Of a DNA stretch of 31,373 nt, positions 4,725-21,752 are shown piece after piece. The notes beneath the pieces were generated by a model. The model was not told where the DNA came from. It ran no database searches and was given only the letters and a program-made list of their open reading frames with translations. Both the position numbers and the translations under genes were made by a program. The stretch spans positions 1-31,373 of the forward strand of contig JALTLP010000374.1 in assembly GCA_027001895.1 (NCBI GenBank). Direction: 5' to 3'. This DNA comes from Chromatiales bacterium. Its GTDB lineage: Bacteria > Pseudomonadota > Gammaproteobacteria > UBA6429 > Thiohalophilaceae. Every line of letters starts with the position of its first letter. The stretch's first letter is position 1.

Positions 4725-4763
4725 AAGGGTAAAAAGTATTTATACTTTTTACCCTTTTTTTTT
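4725..4763 (+). terminator. Probable intrinsic terminator between convergent genes (possibly bidirectional)
   Basis: 15-bp perfect inverted repeat AAGGGTAAAAAGTAT-tt-ATACTTTTTACCCTT running into a T tract (4755-4763). Confidence 0.7.
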
Positions 4764-5784
4764 AAGCTGTTTTTTCTAACTGTTTAGTCATAACAGCAAT
4801 CCCTGCAACCATACCAACGACCGCTAACAATGACTCAAGTGATAAAGTAGAAATACCACTCAGCCCCTGGCCGATATTACAGCCATAAGCCATGATGGCG
4901 CCAATGCCCATCAGCGCACCACCGAGTACAGCCATTTTTGCCATGCCTTTATTGGGTGGGGTAATTTTAAATTGTCCTTTAATTATTGCCAGTACAAGTG
5001 AAACCACGGCTGTACCAATAACAAAAGAAATCGAGAAGGAGAATGCCGGTATTCGACCGGATAAGATAATATAACCAAAGCGTGCCATGGGCCCCGATAC
5101 GGTGATTGCTGAAGGTCGGGTTGGATCAAACTCGTCCTGTGCCAGTACGCCGGTAATGTACCAACTGGTAACAACAAGCAGACCAATAATAATACCTGCG
5201 CCCAACATTGTTTTATCTGTAGATTGTTTCCAGCCCTTAAAAATAAACAGCAATAATATAACGGCAACAACAGCAAGCACCAGCCACTGCGGTAAACCCA
5301 GTATTGTTGCTATTCCTGCATCACTGACTAATTCAACCGAGGTCATCTCGGTAAGGGACAGTCGAACCGATTCAAGAAAACCAAACTGGGTAATAGACGC
5401 AACAAGTGCAAAAGAAACAAGCGCAAGCAGCGAATGCATACTGCCTTCCATACTTTTTACAATGGTTCGTGCAGCACAACCCCCGGCGAGGGTTGCACCA
5501 ATACCAAATATAAAACCACCGACACTGGCACCAAACCAGTCCAGCGTGTGATTACGGTAAGACGACTCGGCAATGGCCACCATATCAAACATTTCCAGCA
5601 GTTGCGTACCGCTAATGCCAATTAGCAAGGTCACAGCAAACGCCAGAGCCTGGCGGTAATCTTTTATTAAAAGCAGGTTACTTGTTCCGGCAACCATACA
5701 AAAACGAAATGGTTGAACTATTACTGCAAATACAGCACCAACAGCCATACCGCCACCGACTAACCAGAGATTAAGTCCGCTCAT
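4762..5784 (-). CDS. YeeE/YedE (TsuA-like) thiosulfate/sulfur-compound transporter
   Basis: 340 aa, about 9 TM segments, conserved Cys motifs FRFCM, LAGGCAAR and AYGCNIGQGLSG, RBS GGGAGGA at 5791-5797. Confidence 0.88.
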   Translation of the reverse strand: MSGLNLWLVGGGMAVGAVFAVIVQPFRFCMVAGTSNLLLIKDYRQALAFAVTLLIGISGTQLLEMFDMVAIAESSYRNHTLDWFGASVGGFIFGIGATLAGGCAARTIVKSMEGSMHSLLALVSFALVASITQFGFLESVRLSLTEMTSVELVSDAGIATILGLPQWLVLAVVAVILLLFIFKGWKQSTDKTMLGAGIIIGLLVVTSWYITGVLAQDEFDPTRPSAITVSGPMARFGYIILSGRIPAFSFSISFVIGTAVVSLVLAIIKGQFKITPPNKGMAKMAVLGGALMGIGAIMAYGCNIGQGLSGISTLSLESLLAVVGMVAGIAVMTKQLEKTA

Positions 5785-5813
5785 TATTATTCCTCCCGTT
5801 TAAAAATGCCCTG

Positions 5814-6701
5814 TTATAATTTTTGCAGGCCGTGTTCTTTATAAATATTTATTGCCGTATCACTGAGCATAAATTCAAGGAACGGCTGGCCCCACTGTCC
5901 GGCATTGTTCATTAAACCAATATGGTAATCGGTGGTCACCGGTTTTTTTGTCTGGATATCGACCAGGTCGAAACTGTCAGGAAATATACGCGTATAGCGC
6001 AGAGCAAGGTGATAATAAACAACAGCCACGTCGGCAAGTCCCTGGTAAATAGCCTGTGGGACTTCGCGGTGGTGGATAGATTCACCAAATACTGTTTTGG
6101 CAGCGTCTCTGGCAATCAAATTTGCCAGGCTTGTTTTATCAAGGCCCTGCTCATCCGCCACTGTCATCAAGGTTTGTTTGTACACATTATAACTGGCAGC
6201 CTCGGTTACCGGGTTAGATATTGTCAGGCGCACATCGGCGCGTAACAGGTCGGCAACCCCCTGGATGGCTTTGGGATTACCTTTTTTAACCAGCAACACA
6301 TTGTCGCGGCTGCGCGCAAAAGCCTTGTGTGAATCAAGTTGTTGTTCCTCAACCAGTTTGTCGAGAATATTTTTCGGGCTGATAAAAATATCCGGCCGCA
6401 GATTAAGCCGCAAATTACCCAGCATCACGCCGCCTTTCAATACCGAATCGAGGATAACCCGGGGTGGGGTGGTTGCATAAAAGATATCTTCTACTTCGGG
6501 GTGTTGTTGCAAAAAGTAGCGGCAACAGGCTTGCAGGGCCATATGATGGTTGCCATCGGAAAACACCACCAGTTTTGCCTGTACTGGATCGCCATGAAAA
6601 TCCAGGCAAATATTCGACCCGGCCTGATTCCAGCTATTGCTGTCGGCGTAATCCCCCCGGCTTGCTTCCAGTGGCCAGTGTAATTGAGTGTCCATTGCCA
6701 T
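5814..6701 (-). CDS. ModA-like substrate-binding-fold protein, no evident signal peptide
   Basis: 295 aa. Segments LLVKKGNPKAIQGVADLL, ISNP.TEAASY, IHHREVPQAIYQGLADVAVVY and FLEFMLSDTAINIYKEHG resemble molybdate/tungstate-type binding proteins. N-terminus is hydrophilic. Confidence 0.6.
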   Translation of the reverse strand: MAMDTQLHWPLEASRGDYADSNSWNQAGSNICLDFHGDPVQAKLVVFSDGNHHMALQACCRYFLQQHPEVEDIFYATTPPRVILDSVLKGGVMLGNLRLNLRPDIFISPKNILDKLVEEQQLDSHKAFARSRDNVLLVKKGNPKAIQGVADLLRADVRLTISNPVTEAASYNVYKQTLMTVADEQGLDKTSLANLIARDAAKTVFGESIHHREVPQAIYQGLADVAVVYYHLALRYTRIFPDSFDLVDIQTKKPVTTDYHIGLMNNAGQWGQPFLEFMLSDTAINIYKEHGLQKL

Positions 6702-13315: not shown

Positions 13316-13777
13316 ATGAAACAGTTTAAAATAAAATACACAGGAATATTTTTTATAGCATTTAGTCTTGTTTTTAGTTCGGGCGTATACAGCAAAGAGC
13401 CTGGCAAAAAACCAGAAATTACAGTTTACAAAAGCCCAACCTGTGGTTGCTGTAAAAAATGGGTGGCACACCTGGAAAAATCCGGTTTTAACGTAAAAGC
13501 GATAAATCGTCGTGATATGCGTTCAGTTAAAGCACAATTCGGTGTTCATGGTGCTTACCGTTCATGCCATACAGCAAAAATTGGAAAATATTATATTGAA
13601 GGGCATGTTCCTGCCAGTGATATAAAAAGGTTAATAAAAGAAAAACCGGATGCGAAAGGGCTGGCAGTACCGGGCATGCCGATGGGTTCACCGGGTATGG
13701 AAGGCCATCGTAAAGATCGTTATTCAGTGTTACTGGTTGATAAAAAAGAGGGTGTAACAGAGTATAGCCGCCACTGA
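13316..13777 (+). CDS. DUF411 periplasmic metal-binding protein (copper-resistance CopG-like)
   Basis: 153 aa, signal peptide, YKSPTCGCC..W, SCHTA, EGHVPA, GLAVPGMPMGSPGME. Strong RBS AAGGAG. Confidence 0.88.
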   Translation: MKQFKIKYTGIFFIAFSLVFSSGVYSKEPGKKPEITVYKSPTCGCCKKWVAHLEKSGFNVKAINRRDMRSVKAQFGVHGAYRSCHTAKIGKYYIEGHVPASDIKRLIKEKPDAKGLAVPGMPMGSPGMEGHRKDRYSVLLVDKKEGVTEYSRH

Positions 13778-14464: not shown

Positions 14465-16477
14465 TTAATTATTATCAAGCCATTCAGATAAGGGGCGGGG
14501 CTTTCCCAGATAATAACCTTGCCCATAAGTAATGCCTATTTTACGCAGTTCTTCGACGTCTTCTCTGGACTCGACATATTCGGCAACCGTTTCCTGATTA
14601 CGTAACTTGCTTATCTCATTGGTATAACGAATCATCGCATGGTCAACCGGATCGGTCAGCATGTCGCGGACGAAGCTCCCGTCAATTTTAACAACATCAA
14701 ACGGCAGGTTTTTTAAATATTCGAAGGACGACATACCGGTACCAAAGTCATCAAGCGCAAAGCCGATACCATGTTGCCTGCAAAACCGTATAAATTCTTC
14801 AGCCTGCACCAGGTTGCCAATACTCGATGTTTCAGTAACTTCCAGTTCAAGTCGTTGCCAGGGAAAAGTATAGTGTTGAATTGCGTTTTTTACACAGGCC
14901 TGGAATTCAGGATGATTCAGAGTGCCGCCGGCAAGATTAATGTGTACAGAGTGTAGCTTGTTAATATGTTCGGGCTGTTTACAAATTATCTCAAGGTAGC
15001 TGGTTAAAACATGGATATCGATATCTACCATAAGCTGGTAGCGTTCTGCGGTAGGCAGAAACTGATCCGGTGGGAGGAAGTCACCGTTACTGTCCCACAT
15101 ACGAAGTAAAATTTCATAACTTATTTTGTCTGTTGTTTTTTGTAATGGCACTATATCCTGAGCAAAAAGTTCGAAGCGGGCAGGCCCTTCTTTGAGGGCT
15201 TCTTTGATTGCGCTAGCAATATTTATTTCAGTCTTTAACTTGTTATCGCTGTGCTCACTTTGCCTGTGTATATGTAATTTATTTTGCCCGCGTTTTTTTG
15301 CATTATAAAATGCGACATCCGCTACTTTGAGTAATTCTGTCAGGGTATATTCAAAGGGTTTAAAAGCAACAAGGCCAATAGATGCAGATACGCTTAGTGT
15401 TTCGCCATCCCAGACAAAACGAAAGTCACTCAGATCTTTTAATAAAGTTTCGGTTATCGTTGTTGCCTGCTGTAAAGACGTGTTTTTTAACAGAACAATA
15501 AAATCATCACCCCCGGTTCGGGCGATATCTGCTTCTGCCGGTAACGCTGTTTTTAAATAATGCGTAACAAGCTGAAGAAGCTCATCACCTGCAACATGCC
15601 CGACTGAATCATTTATGTTTTTAAACTGGTCAATATCAAGGTTTAACAGGACATGAGATGTTTGTTGTGGGTCTTGCAGTGCCTGATTAATTTTATCCTC
15701 TATCGCATAGCGGTTATACAGGCCGGTCAGTTTGTCATGCTGGCTCTGGTGACGTAAAACATCTGTTGTTTTGATGATTTTTGAAATCATCCGGTTATAA
15801 CCATTGAATAACAGGCCGATTTCATTTTTTGCTCTGGTTTTAACGCTGATAAATTTATTTTTGTCTATATCGCTCTGATAAATGGCCGAAGCAAGTATTT
15901 CAAAAGGCTTTGTATAATACCGACTGATTCGCCATGCGATAAAAATACCAACACCGACAATAAACGGGAAGATTAGCATCAGGGTTATAAATTTTTCCTT
16001 TATTCGGGTGTTATATTGTTCTGGATTAATAACAATAATGGTATCACCGAGTTTAAAGTCATCCGCAGTAACCGGCAGTTTTATAAAAAGGCGGCCGTTA
16101 GCGTCAAAAAAAGGTTTGTTAGTGGTTATTTTCTCAAGGACATCCTGTCTGAGGTATTGTTGTTTACCGTGGGAGAAAATAGCCTGTTGCTTGTTATTAT
16201 ATAATTGCAGCGCATCGACTGATTTAAATCCTTCTATACGAAAGCTTATATCAGACAGGGTATCCGCTCTAGTATTGATAAGTGCCTTTAAAAGGTCATT
16301 GTTAATTGAACGACCAAGTGCGCTGGCTTGTTCAATAGCAAGTACACGACGTTCTTTAATATCAAACCGGCTAACCAGTAATAATGTACCGGCACCGACA
16401 GCAGACAGGAGTATAACCATTAATATAATTAACTGGGTACGTATACTGAGTTTTTGCCATGTTTTCCGTATATTCAT
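14465..16477 (-). CDS. Membrane-anchored HAMP-GGDEF-EAL c-di-GMP enzyme (probable phosphodiesterase)
   Basis: 670 aa: TM, periplasmic domain, TM, HAMP, then HDKLTGLYNR, DIDQFKNINDSVGH.AGD, GGDDF, then EAL domain YEILLR, ELEVTE, DDFGTG, KIDGSFV, AEYVE, QGYYLGKP. Confidence 0.92.
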   Translation of the reverse strand: MNIRKTWQKLSIRTQLIILMVILLSAVGAGTLLLVSRFDIKERRVLAIEQASALGRSINNDLLKALINTRADTLSDISFRIEGFKSVDALQLYNNKQQAIFSHGKQQYLRQDVLEKITTNKPFFDANGRLFIKLPVTADDFKLGDTIIVINPEQYNTRIKEKFITLMLIFPFIVGVGIFIAWRISRYYTKPFEILASAIYQSDIDKNKFISVKTRAKNEIGLLFNGYNRMISKIIKTTDVLRHQSQHDKLTGLYNRYAIEDKINQALQDPQQTSHVLLNLDIDQFKNINDSVGHVAGDELLQLVTHYLKTALPAEADIARTGGDDFIVLLKNTSLQQATTITETLLKDLSDFRFVWDGETLSVSASIGLVAFKPFEYTLTELLKVADVAFYNAKKRGQNKLHIHRQSEHSDNKLKTEINIASAIKEALKEGPARFELFAQDIVPLQKTTDKISYEILLRMWDSNGDFLPPDQFLPTAERYQLMVDIDIHVLTSYLEIICKQPEHINKLHSVHINLAGGTLNHPEFQACVKNAIQHYTFPWQRLELEVTETSSIGNLVQAEEFIRFCRQHGIGFALDDFGTGMSSFEYLKNLPFDVVKIDGSFVRDMLTDPVDHAMIRYTNEISKLRNQETVAEYVESREDVEELRKIGITYGQGYYLGKPRPLSEWLDNN

Positions 16478-16506
16478 AATGTCAGTATGAAAAGCAGTAA
16501 CGATGT

Positions 16507-17364
16507 TTACTTTTCTATAGGCAGGGAATCATCGTTACCCCATTCTCGCCATGAGGCATCATAGTTTGATACATCATGTCCAAGTTCGCGTAATGCAAAG
16601 TAATTGGTGGATGATACCCGGCCAATTTTGCAATAGATAATAATTTTTTTGCCATAAGGAATATTGGAATAAAGTTTTTTTAATTCTTTTATCGGTTTTA
16701 ATGCTGCAAACTTATTATCCTTAATCAGGTTCTGATTAAAAGGTACGTTGATTGCCGTTGGTATGTGCCCAAAGCGTTTAGCGACTGAGGTTTTTCCTTT
16801 GTAGGCATCCTCTGAGCGGGCATCAATAACAAGTTTTCTGTTGTTATAAATAGCCAGTTGGGTTGTAAATTTACTTGATAGTCGGCTGTGATCGATTGTT
16901 GCAACATACTTACCTGGTTTTATTTCTGGTTGCTGTTGTGAAACGGGCAAATTTTTTGCCAGCCAGTAGTTAAATCCATGGTCAACAATTTTGACATGTT
17001 TAATGCCATAAACTTCGAGTGTCCAGAATAAGCGTGCGGCATCAACCAGATCGCCATTGTCATAGATAATTACTTTTGAATGAATACCAATGTCTCTTTG
17101 TCGGAAGTATTGCTGTATTTTATCGGGCTTCTGGATTTGACCGTTTACTTTTTTATTAACATAGGTCAGCTCTACCGGAAAGCTTAGAGCGTTTTTTACA
17201 TGAGTGACATCATAGTCGTTCTTATTTCGTGCATCGAGAATAACGTAGTTCGGATTATCGAGCAGTTTTACAAGCTCTTCCGGTGATATTCGCAGTGATT
17301 CGGCAACGGCAAGCTCACAGAGCAACCAGAGAATCAGTGACAGGCTTATTAATAATTTACGCAT
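16507..17364 (-). CDS. Exported tandem-domain rhodanese/sulfurtransferase
   Basis: 285 aa, signal peptide MRKLLISLSLILWLLCELAVA, ILDAR..YDVTHVKNA, VIDARS...FGHIPTA, active-site loop YCKIGRVSS, NYDASWREWG. RBS AGGGA. Confidence 0.88.
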   Translation of the reverse strand: MRKLLISLSLILWLLCELAVAESLRISPEELVKLLDNPNYVILDARNKNDYDVTHVKNALSFPVELTYVNKKVNGQIQKPDKIQQYFRQRDIGIHSKVIIYDNGDLVDAARLFWTLEVYGIKHVKIVDHGFNYWLAKNLPVSQQQPEIKPGKYVATIDHSRLSSKFTTQLAIYNNRKLVIDARSEDAYKGKTSVAKRFGHIPTAINVPFNQNLIKDNKFAALKPIKELKKLYSNIPYGKKIIIYCKIGRVSSTNYFALRELGHDVSNYDASWREWGNDDSLPIEK

Positions 17365-18927: not shown

Positions 18928-19134
18928 CTTAAAACTAAAACTTATTTTTATCTGGAATTAGACTATAGTTGTAGTACAGTTCACAATTATAAGAAAAGCT
19001 GCAAAATATAATTACAAAAACCATTATTCTATTTTAAAGACCAAATGTGTTCAGAAGTAATAGATTAATTAGAGACTCTGGTGCTACTGCGTAGCACCGG
19101 TTTATAACAGTTGTTTATTAATAAGGAGTTGTTA

Positions 19135-20676
19135 ATGAGTACTGATTCCAACACGCTAGATAAAAAAAAGAAGAAACAGCAAAAGTCTGAATTTAATCCA
19201 AATCTGTCGAACCAGTATCTTGACCGGCTTAATCTGGACATTCAGCCCCGTGAAGACGACGATTCTATTGCTGACGACCTTGATGATTCTTATTCTGGCT
19301 TAAGTGAGCGTATCGAAAACTGTATGGCCATGACAATGGAAGCCTTTCCCTGTTTTGACTTTCAGTATCCATCGGCGGCACTTTCCCGTAAACCTACTTT
19401 TGAACACCAGTATGAAATTCTCTGGTCAAAATATAATGTGCATCAGGACGCGGCTGCGCTTTATGTACATATTCCTTTTTGCCGTTCAAAATGTTCATTT
19501 TGCTACTTTACTGTTGCGGCAAACCGGGGTGAAGATGAAATTGATGTTTACTTAAATGCGCTCGAAACTGAAATTCAGCGTATATCTCCGCATGTGCAGG
19601 ACCGAAAGATAGAATCTGTTTATATCGGTGGTGGTACGCCCACTTATTTAAGTGCGCGCCAGTTAGAACGATTGTTTAAAATGCTATACAAGTATTACAA
19701 CCTTGATAATGTTAAGGAATGGTCGATAGAAAGTACCCCTACACTCGCCACTGAAGATAAAATAAAAATAATGAAACAATACGGCGTTAACCGTTTCAGT
19801 TTGGGTATTCAAACAACGCACGATCATATTCTTAAAAACCTTAACCGTTCTTTTGAACGCAAAGATATTGAAAATGTAATCGAGTTGTCACGTAAAATTG
19901 GTATAGACAATATTAATCTTGACTTTATGTACGCTTTGCCGGGGCAGTCGATGGATGACTGGCACAGTACCCTGACGAATGCGATTGCTCAGGATATTCC
20001 CGGGCTGACTGTTTATTCACTGGATTTACACGAGAGTACTCAGTTTTTCAGGAAGAAAGATGAGCTGAGTTTACCTGATCTGCAAATGCAGTTAAAAATG
20101 TACGATGATGCTATCGAGATATTTGATAAAAACGGTTACAAAAAAATAAATAATAATATTTTTGCAAAAGAAAAATCCATGTACATACATCAGAACCGGC
20201 GTTGGGAAAACCTGCCATTAATTGCTGTTGGTGCAGGCGGTCAGTCGTATTCACCAGGTTATGCCTACAGAAATATTCCAACACTTAAAATATATATGGA
20301 TGCAATTAAGAATAATGAATCTATCTTGCATAAATATACGCCGGTCGTGGACGGTCAGGAATTTTATCGTGAAGGGGTTTCGATGATTCGCTTTGCGCAA
20401 CTTGATAAAGCGGCATTTGAAGGTCGCTATGGTTCACCTTTTAAGGAACGCTTTGAATTTCTGATTGATACATTGATAGAACTTGATTATATGGAAGAAA
20501 CCAAAGATGAGCTGCGCTTAACAAAACGTGGACTGCATCGCTCCAACATGATCAGTATGTTTTTCTATTGTGACGATGTTAAGAAAAAACTGGTCGACCA
20601 TCTGTACGTTGCGCATGCTCCGCAAATGCAGGCATTGCGTTCGGTTGGTTTAACTGAACAACGTAACTTACGTTAG
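19135..20676 (+). CDS. HemN-like (class C) radical SAM enzyme with N-terminal extension; function unassigned
   Basis: YVHIPFCRSKCSFCYF (CxxxCxxC), YIGGGTPT, RFSLGIQ, NLDFMYALPGQ, plus a HemN-type C-terminal region. Start moved to ATG 19135 because AAGGAG lies at 19123-19128. Confidence 0.85.
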   Translation: MSTDSNTLDKKKKKQQKSEFNPNLSNQYLDRLNLDIQPREDDDSIADDLDDSYSGLSERIENCMAMTMEAFPCFDFQYPSAALSRKPTFEHQYEILWSKYNVHQDAAALYVHIPFCRSKCSFCYFTVAANRGEDEIDVYLNALETEIQRISPHVQDRKIESVYIGGGTPTYLSARQLERLFKMLYKYYNLDNVKEWSIESTPTLATEDKIKIMKQYGVNRFSLGIQTTHDHILKNLNRSFERKDIENVIELSRKIGIDNINLDFMYALPGQSMDDWHSTLTNAIAQDIPGLTVYSLDLHESTQFFRKKDELSLPDLQMQLKMYDDAIEIFDKNGYKKINNNIFAKEKSMYIHQNRRWENLPLIAVGAGGQSYSPGYAYRNIPTLKIYMDAIKNNESILHKYTPVVDGQEFYREGVSMIRFAQLDKAAFEGRYGSPFKERFEFLIDTLIELDYMEETKDELRLTKRGLHRSNMISMFFYCDDVKKKLVDHLYVAHAPQMQALRSVGLTEQRNLR

Positions 20677-20681
20677 CGGAA

Positions 20682-21395
20682 TTAACTTTGTATAAAATTA
20701 ATAATCCAGTCTCTTTGTAGTTCATGGTCATCCGATTGCAGCAGAGATGCACGGGCACTTTTGCGTTGTTCTTTAGCAAGGTTTTTTGATTCGAGCTTTA
20801 TAATAAGCCTGACATAGTTTTTGCTGAATTCAGGGTGCCCCTGGAAAGTTAATATATGCTGGTCTACACAGAAGCCGGAATAAGGACTCAGGTTTGTCTC
20901 TGCAAAATTAACAGCATTTTCAGGCAAACGGGTAACATGATCCTGGTGGCTTACAAGGCTGAAGATAAAGTCCCGCTGTGGCTGCATCCAGCTAAATGCC
21001 TCGGTGATGTGAGTGGCAGTTATTCCGATTTCCCAACCTTTGGGATTTTTTTCAACACGGCCACCAAGTGCCTGCGCAATTAACTGATGGCCGAAACAAA
21101 TTCCGATTAGTTTCTTTCTGTGGTCATGCAACCTGACAATAAAGTGCTGCAATTGCTGTATCCATTCAATATCATCGTAGGTGCTATATTGACTGCCGGT
21201 AATAATATAACAGTCACACTCGTCGATTGTTTCAGGATATTGCATATCAAAAACGTTGTAACTGTTAAATGAAACACTGTTTTTATAACTTTGTTGCAGT
21301 GGAGACAGCAGTTCAATAAATTTGTCGGTATAACAACCATACCTGCGAATGATGGCCGGGCTTAAAGGGTCGGCATCTAATATTCCAATTTTCAT
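20682..21395 (-). CDS. Class I glutamine amidotransferase-like protein
   Basis: IITGSQYS, nucleophile elbow GICFGHQL, SHQDHV, FQGHPEF (Cys-His-Glu triad). Start set at MKIGIL (21395); the longer ORF overlaps pilZ. Confidence 0.88.
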   Translation of the reverse strand: MKIGILDADPLSPAIIRRYGCYTDKFIELLSPLQQSYKNSVSFNSYNVFDMQYPETIDECDCYIITGSQYSTYDDIEWIQQLQHFIVRLHDHRKKLIGICFGHQLIAQALGGRVEKNPKGWEIGITATHITEAFSWMQPQRDFIFSLVSHQDHVTRLPENAVNFAETNLSPYSGFCVDQHILTFQGHPEFSKNYVRLIIKLESKNLAKEQRKSARASLLQSDDHELQRDWIINFIQS

Positions 21396-21482
21396 GTTTA
21401 AGGCCGGCTTTTTATTGTGAGTAATTTTATTTATGTTAAATTTGGCTATACTATCAGGAATTATAGCGAAAAAAGTTAAATT

Positions 21483-21752
21483 ATGAGTAATAAACGCAAA
21501 CATCCTCGCTTACCTTTACCAATGCAGGTTGAGGTGAGTGTAGAAAACCAGCAGCCGGTAATTATGAAAACCCGTGACATGAGTGATGGCGGCGTTTTTC
21601 TTGAAGAAAACAAAAATATTATTCTGCAAATGGGGGTTAAGCTAACTTTAAAAGTGATTGAAAGTGTTCAGGGTGATGAGCCGCCCGAAATTTCGGCAAC
21701 CGTTGTGCGTGTTGCCGAAGACGGTGTGGCGGTGCAGTTTGACTTTGACTAG
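21483..21752 (+). CDS. Stand-alone PilZ-domain protein
   Basis: 89 aa with RKHPR (RxxxR) and DMSDGG (D/NxSxxG) c-di-GMP-binding motifs. Confidence 0.88.
   Translation: MSNKRKHPRLPLPMQVEVSVENQQPVIMKTRDMSDGGVFLEENKNIILQMGVKLTLKVIESVQGDEPPEISATVVRVAEDGVAVQFDFD

What the first reader, a model, noticed from the sequence alone, without database searches (positions are those of the whole stretch)
14465..17364. Exported rhodanese encoded with a periplasm-sensing GGDEF-EAL protein: possible sulfane-sulfur to c-di-GMP signalling
Seen: a signal-peptide-bearing tandem rhodanese with an atypical loop (CKIGRV) ends 29 nt before a TM-periplasmic-TM-HAMP-GGDEF-EAL gene. Established: periplasmic partner proteins commonly control co-encoded membrane c-di-GMP enzymes (YfiBNR, LapDG), and rhodaneses carry persulfides from thiosulfate or polysulfide. 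Inference: the rhodanese acts as a sulfur-loaded receptor controlling c-di-GMP, and so motility or attachment; a stand-alone PilZ lies about 4 kb away. I do not know of a described system with this pairing.
Basis: partly seen in the sequence, partly recalled or inferred. Interest (0 to 1): 0.62.

Follow-up and report, generated by a model that had tools for sequence, protein, structure and literature searches.

The report
Periplasmic rhodanese paired with membrane sensor
An exported sulfur-transfer enzyme (rhodanese) is always encoded directly in front of one particular kind of membrane sensor in sulfur-oxidising bacteria of two phyla, whatever that sensor's output, so the two most likely form an undescribed sensing unit, which in this genome would couple a sulfur-related signal outside the cell to c-di-GMP breakdown.

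Summary
Observation confirmed. On the minus strand, a 285-aa exported tandem rhodanese (16507-17364; Cys245 in CKIGRVS) ends 29 nt before a 670-aa gene (14465-16477). That gene encodes TM, a periplasmic PAS/PDC (CHASE8-like) domain, TM, HAMP, GGDDF and EAL.

The pairing is not chance. All 24 members of this rhodanese clade found by rhodanese-first sampling have the sensor gene directly downstream. None of 83 nearest generic rhodaneses does. Sensor-first sampling added 15 pairs, giving 39 in all (12 or more gammaproteobacterial families plus Campylobacterales), with two secondary losses. Only these two genes are conserved.

The rhodanese follows the periplasmic sensor domain, not the output: eight partners are histidine kinases. 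The two trees are congruent, and one pair crossed phyla as a unit.

Best reading (0.6): the rhodanese is the periplasmic co-sensor of the sensor domain, with YfiR/YfiN- or LuxP/LuxQ-like logic, probably reporting thiosulfate or sulfane sulfur. Here the output is c-di-GMP hydrolysis.

Caveats:
- The sensor domain has no Cys, so there is no persulfide relay.
- The catalytic Cys is lost in two lineages and loop chemistry varies.
- There is no binding or expression evidence.

I found no paper on this pairing.

The parts
16507..17364 (-). Gene for an exported tandem-domain rhodanese (285 aa, stop included), a member of a distinct 'sensor-paired' rhodanese clade
   Evidence: ORF and translation. PF00581 matched twice. 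The clade has SH-aLRT support 99 against the 40 nearest generic rhodaneses. The nearest solved structures are tandem thiosulfate/3-mercaptopyruvate sulfurtransferases (3hwi, 3aax, 1urh).
17302..17364 (-). Signal peptide codons (residues 1-21, MRK + hydrophobic core + AVA, predicted cleavage before E22)
   Evidence: Read from the translation. A hydrophobic N-terminal segment is present in 27 of 28 paired-clade members against 8 of 40 generic rhodaneses. Cleavage was not tested.
16612..16632 (-). Active-site loop CKIGRVS with catalytic Cys245 (TGC at 16630-16632)
   Evidence: The Cys is kept in 23 of 26 aligned pair members. It is replaced by Gly in L159 and by Asp in L162/L163.
16478..16506 (-). 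29-nt spacer between the two genes. It has no recognisable Shine-Dalgarno sequence, and CATACT lies 6 nt before the ATG.
   Evidence: No sigma-70-like promoter and no terminator-like site was called here on the minus strand. In the other pairs the spacing runs from a 4-nt overlap to +87 nt, with one case of 175 nt.
14465..16477 (-). Gene for the membrane sensor: TM, periplasmic PDC (CHASE8-like) domain, TM, HAMP, GGDDF, EAL (670 aa, stop included)
15758..16477 (-). Sensor input module (residues 1-240): TM1, periplasmic domain, TM2 and HAMP-like helices. This is the part that co-occurs with the rhodanese.
   Evidence: Alignments A3 and A5. AlphaFold2 pLDDT 86. Foldseek matches the extracellular domains of WalK, DctB, the LapD orthologue CdgS9 and LuxQ. 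hhalign against the E. coli DgcN N-terminus gives probability 79%, E 1.6e-5.
15989..16366 (-). Periplasmic PAS/PDC-like domain (about residues 38-163), free of Cys
   Evidence: Secondary structure of the model. There are 0 Cys in this stretch in all 26 aligned sensors.
15278..15742 (-). GGDEF domain (residues 246-400) with the degenerate motif GGDDF at 15500-15514
   Evidence: PF00990. Motif table.
14498..15208 (-). EAL domain (residues 424-660) with intact signature motifs (EILLR 15101-15115; ELEVTE; DDFGTG 14735-14752; KID; EYVE; QG)
   Evidence: PF00563, E 4.9e-51. Motifs read.

Best explanation
The two genes form one extracytoplasmic sensing unit.

The rhodanese is exported to the periplasm. 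There it acts as the accessory co-sensor of the sensor's Cys-free PAS/PDC (CHASE8-like) domain. It most likely binds that domain directly, the way YfiR acts on YfiN or LuxP on LuxQ.

The state of the rhodanese would change that contact. Candidate states are free Cys245, Cys245 persulfidated by thiosulfate or polysulfide, or an anion bound in the active-site cradle. The change would be passed through TM2 and HAMP to the cytoplasmic output.

In this genome the output is the EAL phosphodiesterase, because the GGDEF domain is degenerate (GGDDF). The unit would therefore set c-di-GMP level, and with it motile versus attached behaviour, according to reduced-sulfur supply outside the cell.

Shown here:
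- Both proteins' domain make-up and the export signal.
- Strict, clade-specific co-occurrence and joint inheritance.
- Independence from the output type.

Inferred:
- Physical binding.
- The identity of the signal.
- The sign of the response.
For: 1. Clade-specific linkage.
- Rhodanese-first sampling: 6/6 among relatives, 6/6 top hits of 185,579 species genomes, 3/3 in metagenome contigs, and 11/11 in a 151-genome Campylobacterales sample.
- These give 24 distinct pairs. All have the sensor gene immediately downstream on the same strand.
- 0 of 74 + 9 nearest generic rhodaneses have it.

2. Reverse direction.
- Of the 20 best sensor-domain hits in 400 genomes of the class, 16 have the rhodanese directly upstream.
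- Two more pairs lie lower in the list.
- In the sensor tree, the 10 unpaired look-alike sensors form a separate clade (support 99).
- Two unpaired sensors nest inside paired clades. One of them has a frameshifted rhodanese remnant.

3. The output is swappable. The output is GGDEF-EAL in most pairs. It is HAMP-PAS-HisKA-HATPase (with or without REC) in 8 pairs, from both phyla. The rhodanese therefore tracks the periplasmic input.

4. Only these two genes are conserved within +/-6 kb. Gaps run from -4 to +87 nt.

5. The paired rhodaneses are one clade (SH-aLRT 99).
- Sub-clades match those of the sensor tree.
- Distance matrices correlate: r = 0.76, and 0 of 2000 permutations reached it.
- A Campylobacterales pair (L258) has both genes nearest to the window's gammaproteobacterial clade.

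6. 27 of 28 paired rhodaneses carry a signal-peptide-like N-terminus, against 8 of 40 generic ones.

7. The sensor domain has a fold of the type that binds partner proteins in WalK, LapD and LuxQ. It is distantly alignable to YfiN/DgcN's N-terminus.

8. Loss of the catalytic Cys in two lineages that keep the pairing fits a regulatory role better than a purely catalytic one.

9. SoxB is present in 15 of 18 module genomes, against 135 of 382 others in the class sample (Fisher p 6e-5, not corrected for relatedness). The window genome has SoxB and a YeeE-type sulfur transporter.
Against: - There is no direct evidence of binding. No complex prediction could be run, no natural fusion was found, and there are too few pairs for residue-level covariation.
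- No RNA data were available, and no Shine-Dalgarno sequence is visible before the sensor gene.
- The distance correlation and tree congruence are also expected for any two genes inherited together.
- Signal identity is weak:
  - Loop chemistry varies from dibasic (CKIGRVS, CNRGKES) to acidic (CDGGAEA, CQDGADA).
  - The Cys is absent in L159 and L162/L163.
  - Two Campylobacterota MAGs and three gammaproteobacterial module genomes show no SoxB.
- The PDC fold equally suits direct small-ligand binding (DctB is among the matches).
- The CHASE8 assignment is below Pfam's threshold.
Confidence: 0.6

Rival explanations
1. Enzyme-coupled sensing without contact. The rhodanese turns a periplasmic sulfur compound into, or removes, a small molecule such as sulfite, thiocyanate or a low-molecular persulfide. 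The PDC domain then binds that molecule itself. The two genes work together but never touch.
For: PDC/Cache-like domains usually bind small ligands, and DctB is among the fold matches. The catalytic Cys and the six-residue loop are kept in 23 of 26 members. The strict co-occurrence is explained equally well by this reading.
Against: Two lineages keep the pair after losing the catalytic Cys. Loop chemistry differs widely between clades while the pairing stays the same. A diffusible product would not need a dedicated, co-diversifying enzyme clade.
Confidence: 0.2
2. Co-expression only. The rhodanese is an ordinary periplasmic sulfur-carrier or detoxifying enzyme that merely shares a transcript with a sensor. 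It has no role in signal perception.
For: Periplasmic rhodaneses with carrier roles are known (Sud, SoxL, PspE, from my own knowledge). Databases name all relatives simply 'sulfurtransferase'.
Against: The linkage is specific to one rhodanese clade and one sensor-domain clade. It survives output swaps, transfer between phyla and changing neighbourhoods, and no metabolic gene travels with the pair. Cys-less members are retained.
Confidence: 0.08
3. The rhodanese is a stability, assembly or localisation factor for the sensor. It would be a constitutive subunit that carries no signal of its own, and the sensor domain would detect something else.
For: Obligate pairing and co-diversification. Cys-less variants exist.
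Against: The catalytic Cys, the loop length and the flanking rhodanese motifs are conserved in most members. That is hard to explain for a passive subunit. One complete genome keeps the sensor without any rhodanese (G185).
Confidence: 0.07

Closest known systems
YfiBNR / TpbB (Pseudomonas aeruginosa), YfiR-DgcN-YfiB (E. coli), HmsCDE (Yersinia pestis)
   Same: A small exported protein is encoded immediately upstream of, and acts on, the periplasmic domain of a TM-CHASE8-TM-HAMP sensor that controls c-di-GMP. The partner's redox state matters (PMC3375315, PMC4887326, PMC5550408). The E. coli gene order yfiR-dgcN was checked. The window's input module aligns distantly with the DgcN N-terminus.
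   Different: The partner here is a 285-aa tandem rhodanese, not YfiR (DUF4154). There is no YfiB-like lipoprotein or any third conserved gene. The output is GGDDF-EAL (a likely phosphodiesterase) or a histidine kinase rather than an active cyclase. NCBIfam's DgcN model scores 147 bits against a cut-off of 325.
LuxP-LuxQ and TorT-TorS (periplasmic binding protein plus sensor kinase)
   Same: A soluble periplasmic ligand-binding protein stays docked on a PAS/PDC-like periplasmic domain and transmits its ligand state. The LuxQ periplasmic domain is among the fold matches (2hj9, 1zhh).
   Different: Those partners are periplasmic-binding-protein folds that bind their ligand non-covalently. Here the partner is an enzyme fold whose natural 'ligand state' is a covalent Cys persulfide. 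That LuxP and TorT are binding-protein folds is from my own knowledge.
LapD-LapG (Pseudomonas fluorescens; CdgS9 in Legionella)
   Same: A TM-periplasmic PAS-like-TM-HAMP-GGDEF-EAL protein whose periplasmic domain binds a periplasmic protein. CdgS9's periplasmic domain is a fold match (4u64).
   Different: LapD signals inside-out, with c-di-GMP bound by a degenerate EAL. Its partner is a protease. The window's EAL keeps its catalytic motifs. NCBIfam's LapD model scores 167 bits against a cut-off of 1020.
H-NOX partnered with histidine kinases or GGDEF-EAL enzymes (HnoK, HaCE)
   Same: A stand-alone sensor protein gene sits next to either a kinase or a c-di-GMP enzyme, and the sensor protein's chemical state controls the partner. 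This is the same 'one input, swappable output' pattern seen.
   Different: H-NOX systems are cytoplasmic, haem-based and sense NO. This comparison is from my own knowledge and was not tested here.
Periplasmic rhodaneses of sulfur metabolism (Sud of Wolinella, SoxL, PspE, YnjE)
   Same: Exported rhodanese-fold proteins that carry sulfane sulfur on a Cys. YnjE is a sequence match at E 7e-28.
   Different: Those are carriers or enzymes that feed reductases or the Sox system, with one or three domains (from my own knowledge). None is reported as the partner of a transmembrane sensor. This clade is tandem-domain, is separate from the nearest generic rhodaneses, and has no metabolic gene travelling with it.
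Thiosulfate and tetrathionate two-component sensors (ThsSR, TtrSR)
   Same: Membrane sensors that report oxidised sulfur anions outside the cytoplasm.
   Different: Those sensors bind the anion with their own periplasmic domain and have no rhodanese partner. This is from my own knowledge and was not tested here.

Membership tests
Rhodanese-fold sulfurtransferase (Pfam PF00581), tandem-domain class | Two rhodanese domains over Pfam's gathering score | tested here: met
   110.2 bits against a cut-off of 22.2, with two stretches. The profile matches tandem thiosulfate and 3-mercaptopyruvate sulfurtransferase (TST/MST) structures at E 1e-54.
Rhodanese-fold sulfurtransferase (Pfam PF00581), tandem-domain class | Catalytic Cys at the start of a six-residue loop in the C-terminal domain | tested here: met
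   Cys245 in CKIGRV(S). It is conserved in 23 of 26 family members.
3-mercaptopyruvate sulfurtransferase SseA (NCBIfam NF008557) | Score at or above the curated cut-off of 250 bits | tested here: not met
   109.7 bits. The loop is dibasic, not CGSGVT.
YfiBNR system | Sensor is a DgcN/YfiN equivalog (NCBIfam NF007423, cut-off 325 bits) | tested here: not met
   147.3 bits, although the match covers residues 8-394.
YfiBNR system | Periplasmic domain is CHASE8 (PF17152, cut-off 27 bits) | tested here: inconclusive
   The window protein gives no hit at E <= 1. Relatives score 22-24 bits. hhalign against the E. coli DgcN N-terminus gives probability 79%, E 1.6e-5.
YfiBNR system | Periplasmic repressor YfiR (DUF4154) and outer-membrane lipoprotein YfiB encoded alongside | tested here: not met
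   The upstream partner is a rhodanese. The window's neighbours are MFS and VTT/DedA proteins. No third gene family recurs within +/-6 kb in 26 loci.
Diguanylate cyclase (GGDEF, PF00990) | Domain present | tested here: met
   136 bits.
Diguanylate cyclase (GGDEF, PF00990) | Active-site motif GG[DE]EF | tested here: not met
   GGDDF in the window, L041, L046 and L157. The motif is absent in L159 and in the four Campylobacterota-type partners whose motifs were tabulated (L049, L051, L179, L182). GGDEF is intact in the PAS-containing gammaproteobacterial partners that extend through the motif. Whether GGDDF retains activity cannot be told from the sequence.
c-di-GMP phosphodiesterase (EAL, PF00563) | Domain present, with the catalytic signature (E-x-L-x-R, N, E-x-x-E, DDFG(T/A)G, K-x-D, E-x-V-E, QG) | tested here: met
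   173.8 bits. The motifs EILLR, INL, ELEVTE, DDFGTG, KID, EYVE and GQG were read. The list of defining motifs is from my own knowledge.
LapD-type c-di-GMP receptor (NCBIfam NF045673) | Score at or above the cut-off of 1020 bits, and a LapG-type protease partner | tested here: not met
   167 bits. No protease gene is adjacent.

The most novel reading that the evidence does not exclude
A new principle of extracytoplasmic sensing. The covalent persulfide state of a dedicated periplasmic rhodanese is read by a Cys-free CHASE8-like PDC domain. This would give chemolithotrophic sulfur oxidisers, both free-living and symbiotic, a plug-in detector of external sulfane sulfur or thiosulfate. Evolution has wired this detector either to c-di-GMP turnover or to two-component phosphorelays, and has moved it between Gammaproteobacteria and Campylobacterota as a two-gene cassette.
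Probability: 0.4. Interest if true: 0.8.

Novelty: new variant of a known kind. Interest (0 to 1): 0.72.

Why it matters
How sulfur-oxidising bacteria at vents, in sediments and inside animal hosts perceive reduced sulfur outside the cell is largely unknown. So is how they use that information to decide between swimming and attachment. The known persulfide sensors are cytoplasmic transcription factors.

A conserved two-gene unit with an exported rhodanese as the input would be a concrete, testable candidate for that missing periplasmic sensor. It would also add a new partner type to the YfiR/YfiN class of partner-controlled CHASE8 sensors. It would give several hundred proteins now labelled only 'sulfurtransferase' a specific role. 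The histidine-kinase versions could be turned into reporters for sulfur compounds.

If the rhodanese turns out to be only a co-expressed enzyme, the finding shrinks to a curious but strict gene linkage.

Tried and rejected
- Persulfide relay from the rhodanese onto a sensor Cys: rejected. No Cys is present in the periplasmic domain of any of 26 sensors.
- A third partner (YfiB-like lipoprotein, YfiR, TonB-dependent receptor): rejected. Clustering of all neighbours within +/-6 kb finds only the two genes recurring.
- The PilZ gene as part of the unit: not supported. It is real in the window, but no PilZ family recurs near the pairs.
- Natural rhodanese-sensor fusion: none at E <= 1e-20 among proteins of 500-2000 aa. 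This is weak evidence only.
Only 3 new pairs came from it.
- Expression: no RNA holder was listed. The only full DNA holder is a hydrothermal vent metagenome that may be the source of the window.
- Promoter and terminator scans around the junction gave counts no different from shuffles and nothing in the spacer. Separate transcription from CATACT can be neither shown nor excluded.
Adjacency therefore could not be checked for the several hundred database relatives or for the cultured Thiomicrorhabdus strain.
A read-through pseudo-fusion was considered and dropped, because the tool returns no interface measure and the topology would be wrong.
- Downstream response regulators of the kinase-type pairs: no common pattern. 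Only L170 has REC-EAL.
- A first attempt to centre a search on locus L049 failed on syntax and was redone through a handle.
Full report
**1. What is in the window**

Two co-oriented genes lie on the minus strand.

The first gene (16507-17364) encodes a 285-aa protein.
- It has two Pfam Rhodanese stretches (PF00581, 110 bits).
- It has a Sec-type signal peptide (MRK, hydrophobic core, AVA before E22).
- Its C-terminal domain carries a catalytic Cys in the six-residue loop CKIGRV(S) (codons 16612-16632).
- It is not an SseA equivalog: NCBIfam scores 109.7 bits against a cut-off of 250.
- The closest solved structures are tandem thiosulfate/3-mercaptopyruvate sulfurtransferases (3hwi, 3aax, 1urh).

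After a 29-nt spacer (16478-16506) comes a 670-aa gene (14465-16477) with GGDEF and EAL domains.

An AlphaFold2 model of its first 240 residues, built on 26 homologues, has pLDDT 86. It shows a long TM1 helix, an alpha/beta periplasmic domain, TM2 and a two-helix HAMP-like unit.

Foldseek places the periplasmic domain among single PAS/PDC extracellular sensor domains. The matches are WalK, DctB, the LapD orthologue CdgS9 and LuxQ.

The GGDEF motif reads GGDDF, whereas the EAL motifs are intact. The likely activity is therefore c-di-GMP hydrolysis.

The flanking genes are an MFS transporter upstream and a convergent VTT/DedA gene downstream.

**2. Is the pairing conserved? Starting from the rhodanese**

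Among 40 relatives, only six genomes had a rhodanese with more than 31% identity to the window's. All six have a GGDEF-EAL gene directly downstream, and its first ~230 residues align with the window's sensor.

A scan of one genome per species (185,579 species) returned 80 rhodanese loci. I scored them with my own profiles for the sensor module, GGDEF and EAL.
- The six best loci have the sensor gene immediately downstream. They are a gammaproteobacterial MAG, Thiohalobacter, Thiohalomonadales, Sulfurimonas, a groundwater MAG and a Helicobacteraceae MAG.
- None of the other 74 does.

A metagenome scan added three pairs.

In a 151-genome sample of Campylobacterales, 11 genomes have a high-scoring member (307 bits or more). 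All 11 are followed by the sensor gene. The nine next-best rhodaneses (206 bits or less) are not.

In total this gives 24 distinct rhodanese-first cases, and all are paired.

**3. Starting from the sensor**

The profile of the sensor input module was searched in 400 genomes of the class.
- Of the 20 best hits, 16 have the rhodanese directly upstream.
- Two more pairs lie lower in the list.
- This adds 15 new pairs, for 39 in all.

In a tree of input modules, ten unpaired look-alike sensors form their own clade (support 99). Two unpaired sensors nest within paired clades.
- One (G281) still has a frameshifted C-terminal rhodanese remnant.
- The other (G185, a closed genome) has none.
- These are secondary losses.

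The denominators of the class-level tallies include four genomes flagged as unpublished (G330, G318, G063, G164). None of them carries the pair, and no positive claim rests on them.

**4. The key result: the rhodanese follows the input domain, not the output**

Most partners are HAMP-PAS-GGDEF-EAL proteins of about 800 aa. The window's clade lacks the PAS domain.

Eight partners are histidine kinases instead (HAMP-PAS-HisKA-HATPase, some with REC). They occur in at least three gammaproteobacterial lineages and in Campylobacterales. One of them is followed by a REC-EAL regulator.

Clustering of all neighbours within +/-6 kb of 26 loci finds no other recurring gene. Spacing runs from a 4-nt overlap to 87 nt, with one case of 175 nt.

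**5. One clade, inherited as a unit**

The 28 paired rhodaneses form a single clade, separated by a long branch (SH-aLRT 99) from the 40 nearest generic rhodaneses. Eight positions distinguish the clade.

Sub-clades in the rhodanese tree reappear in the sensor tree. The distance matrices of the rhodanese and the periplasmic domain correlate: r = 0.76, and 0 of 2000 permutations reached it.

Members of the window's own family fall into different sub-clades in both trees.

One Campylobacterales pair (L258, loop CTIGRVS) has both genes nearest to the window's gammaproteobacterial clade. The cassette therefore moves as a pair.

This shows joint inheritance. On its own it does not prove physical contact.

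**6. Localisation and chemistry**

A signal-peptide-like N-terminus is present in 27 of 28 paired rhodaneses, against 8 of 40 generic ones.

No periplasmic sensor domain contains a Cys. Sulfur transfer onto the sensor is therefore excluded.

The catalytic Cys is kept in 23 of 26 aligned members. It is replaced in L159 (Gly) and in L162/L163 (Asp), and these still keep the pairing.

Loops are dibasic in most Gammaproteobacteria and acidic in most Campylobacterota.

**7. Link to sulfur oxidation**

SoxB is found in 150 of 400 genomes of the class sample, and in 15 of the 18 that carry the pair. Fisher's p is 6e-5, which is not corrected for relatedness.

By family, 10 of 12 families with the pair have SoxB.

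The exceptions include the Cys-less G167/G333. Two Campylobacterota MAGs also show no SoxB.

The window genome has SoxB and a YeeE-type sulfur transporter at 4762-5784. It comes from a hydrothermal vent metagenome.

Database relatives (654 or more cluster representatives at E <= 1e-60) are all labelled just 'sulfurtransferase'. Their sources include lucinid-clam and Gigantopelta symbionts and Thiomicrorhabdus isolates.

**8. How it most likely works**

The pattern is that of a partner-controlled sensor:
- an exported protein whose clade exists only next to one clade of periplasmic sensor domain;
- any output;
- no third gene.

The nearest analogue is YfiR-YfiN.
- The gene order is the same.
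- The input module aligns distantly with DgcN's N-terminus (hhalign probability 79%).
- NCBIfam's DgcN model matches residues 8-394, though below its cut-off.
- Earlier notes of this scan describe many CHASE8 sensors with YfiR-like partners and varied outputs.

I therefore propose that the mature rhodanese docks on the PDC domain. Its active-site state (free, persulfidated or anion-bound) would switch signalling through TM2-HAMP. In this genome the output would be the EAL phosphodiesterase.

Binding, signal identity and the sign of the response are inferences.

The rivals, with their weights, are given in their own section:
- enzyme-coupled sensing without contact;
- mere co-expression;
- a passive stabilising subunit.

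**9. Novelty**

Full-text searches found no description of this pairing. The terms were rhodanese with c-di-GMP, with diguanylate cyclase and with histidine kinase, plus CHASE8 and thiosulfate with c-di-GMP.

A 2022 census of c-di-GMP sensory inputs mentions neither rhodanese nor thiosulfate. A 2026 review of reactive sulfur species links c-di-GMP only to a cytoplasmic regulator.

No NCBIfam model reaches its cut-off for either protein.

The architecture belongs to a known kind, a periplasmic partner plus a membrane sensor. The partner type and the implied signal are new.

**10. Limits**

- Nothing here shows binding, co-transcription or a response to sulfur.
- ORF starts in the related loci are the first possible start codons, so some N-termini and apparent overlaps are overestimated.

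Noticed in passing
window 21483-21752 (+): A stand-alone 89-aa PilZ-domain ORF (PF07238, E 4.5e-11). Its 5' end overlaps, on the opposite strand, the start of the glutamine amidotransferase-like gene (20682-21503). It is not conserved next to the rhodanese-sensor pairs.
   Followed up: partly
L162 9171-10109 (-), L163 6450-7388 (+), L159 6535-7458 (+): These rhodaneses of the paired clade have lost the catalytic Cys (YDDDGKKA in two species of one genus; YGAKGQDA in another family). They are still full-length and still followed by the sensor gene, and all sit on long branches. The first two genomes also lack SoxB. They are candidate pseudo-enzymes kept for a regulatory role.
   Followed up: partly
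L258 1507-3840 (G554, Campylobacterales sample): In this pair the rhodanese (loop CTIGRVS, 53% identical to the window's) and the sensor are both closest to the window's gammaproteobacterial clade. This is an apparent transfer of the two-gene cassette between phyla.
   Followed up: partly
L169 5423-5826 (-) (G281): A frameshifted remnant of the C-terminal half of the rhodanese lies upstream of an intact kinase-type sensor. The close relative G083 (L171) has the intact pair. This is either gene decay or an assembly error in a MAG.
   Followed up: partly
L165 6172-8391 (-) (G248 contig 63): A kinase-type sensor of this family is interrupted by a TAA stop and has no rhodanese upstream. The same genome has an intact pair on another contig (L166).
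   Followed up: no
L170 4912-8685 (-) (G353): A kinase-type partner (hybrid HK-REC, 860 aa) is followed by a REC-EAL regulator and a HisKA-REC protein. In this pair the kinase route may still end in c-di-GMP hydrolysis.
   Followed up: partly
window 4762-6701 (-): A YeeE/YedE-type sulfur transport protein (PF04143, E 1.7e-49) sits next to a solute-binding-protein-like gene (PF13531), 8-10 kb from the pair. This fits a thiosulfate-using lifestyle.
   Followed up: partly
window 13316-13777 (+) and 19111-20676 (+): A DUF411 protein with a weak glutaredoxin-like N-terminus, and a HemN-like radical SAM protein whose best NCBIfam match (STM4012 family) is below its cut-off. Both are neighbours of the pair but are not conserved with it.
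   Followed up: no
window 16478-16506 and other gene starts: No Shine-Dalgarno-like sequence precedes the sensor gene's ATG, while the rhodanese has AGGGA 6 nt upstream of its own ATG. Translation of the sensor may depend on coupling to the rhodanese or on SD-independent initiation.
   Followed up: no
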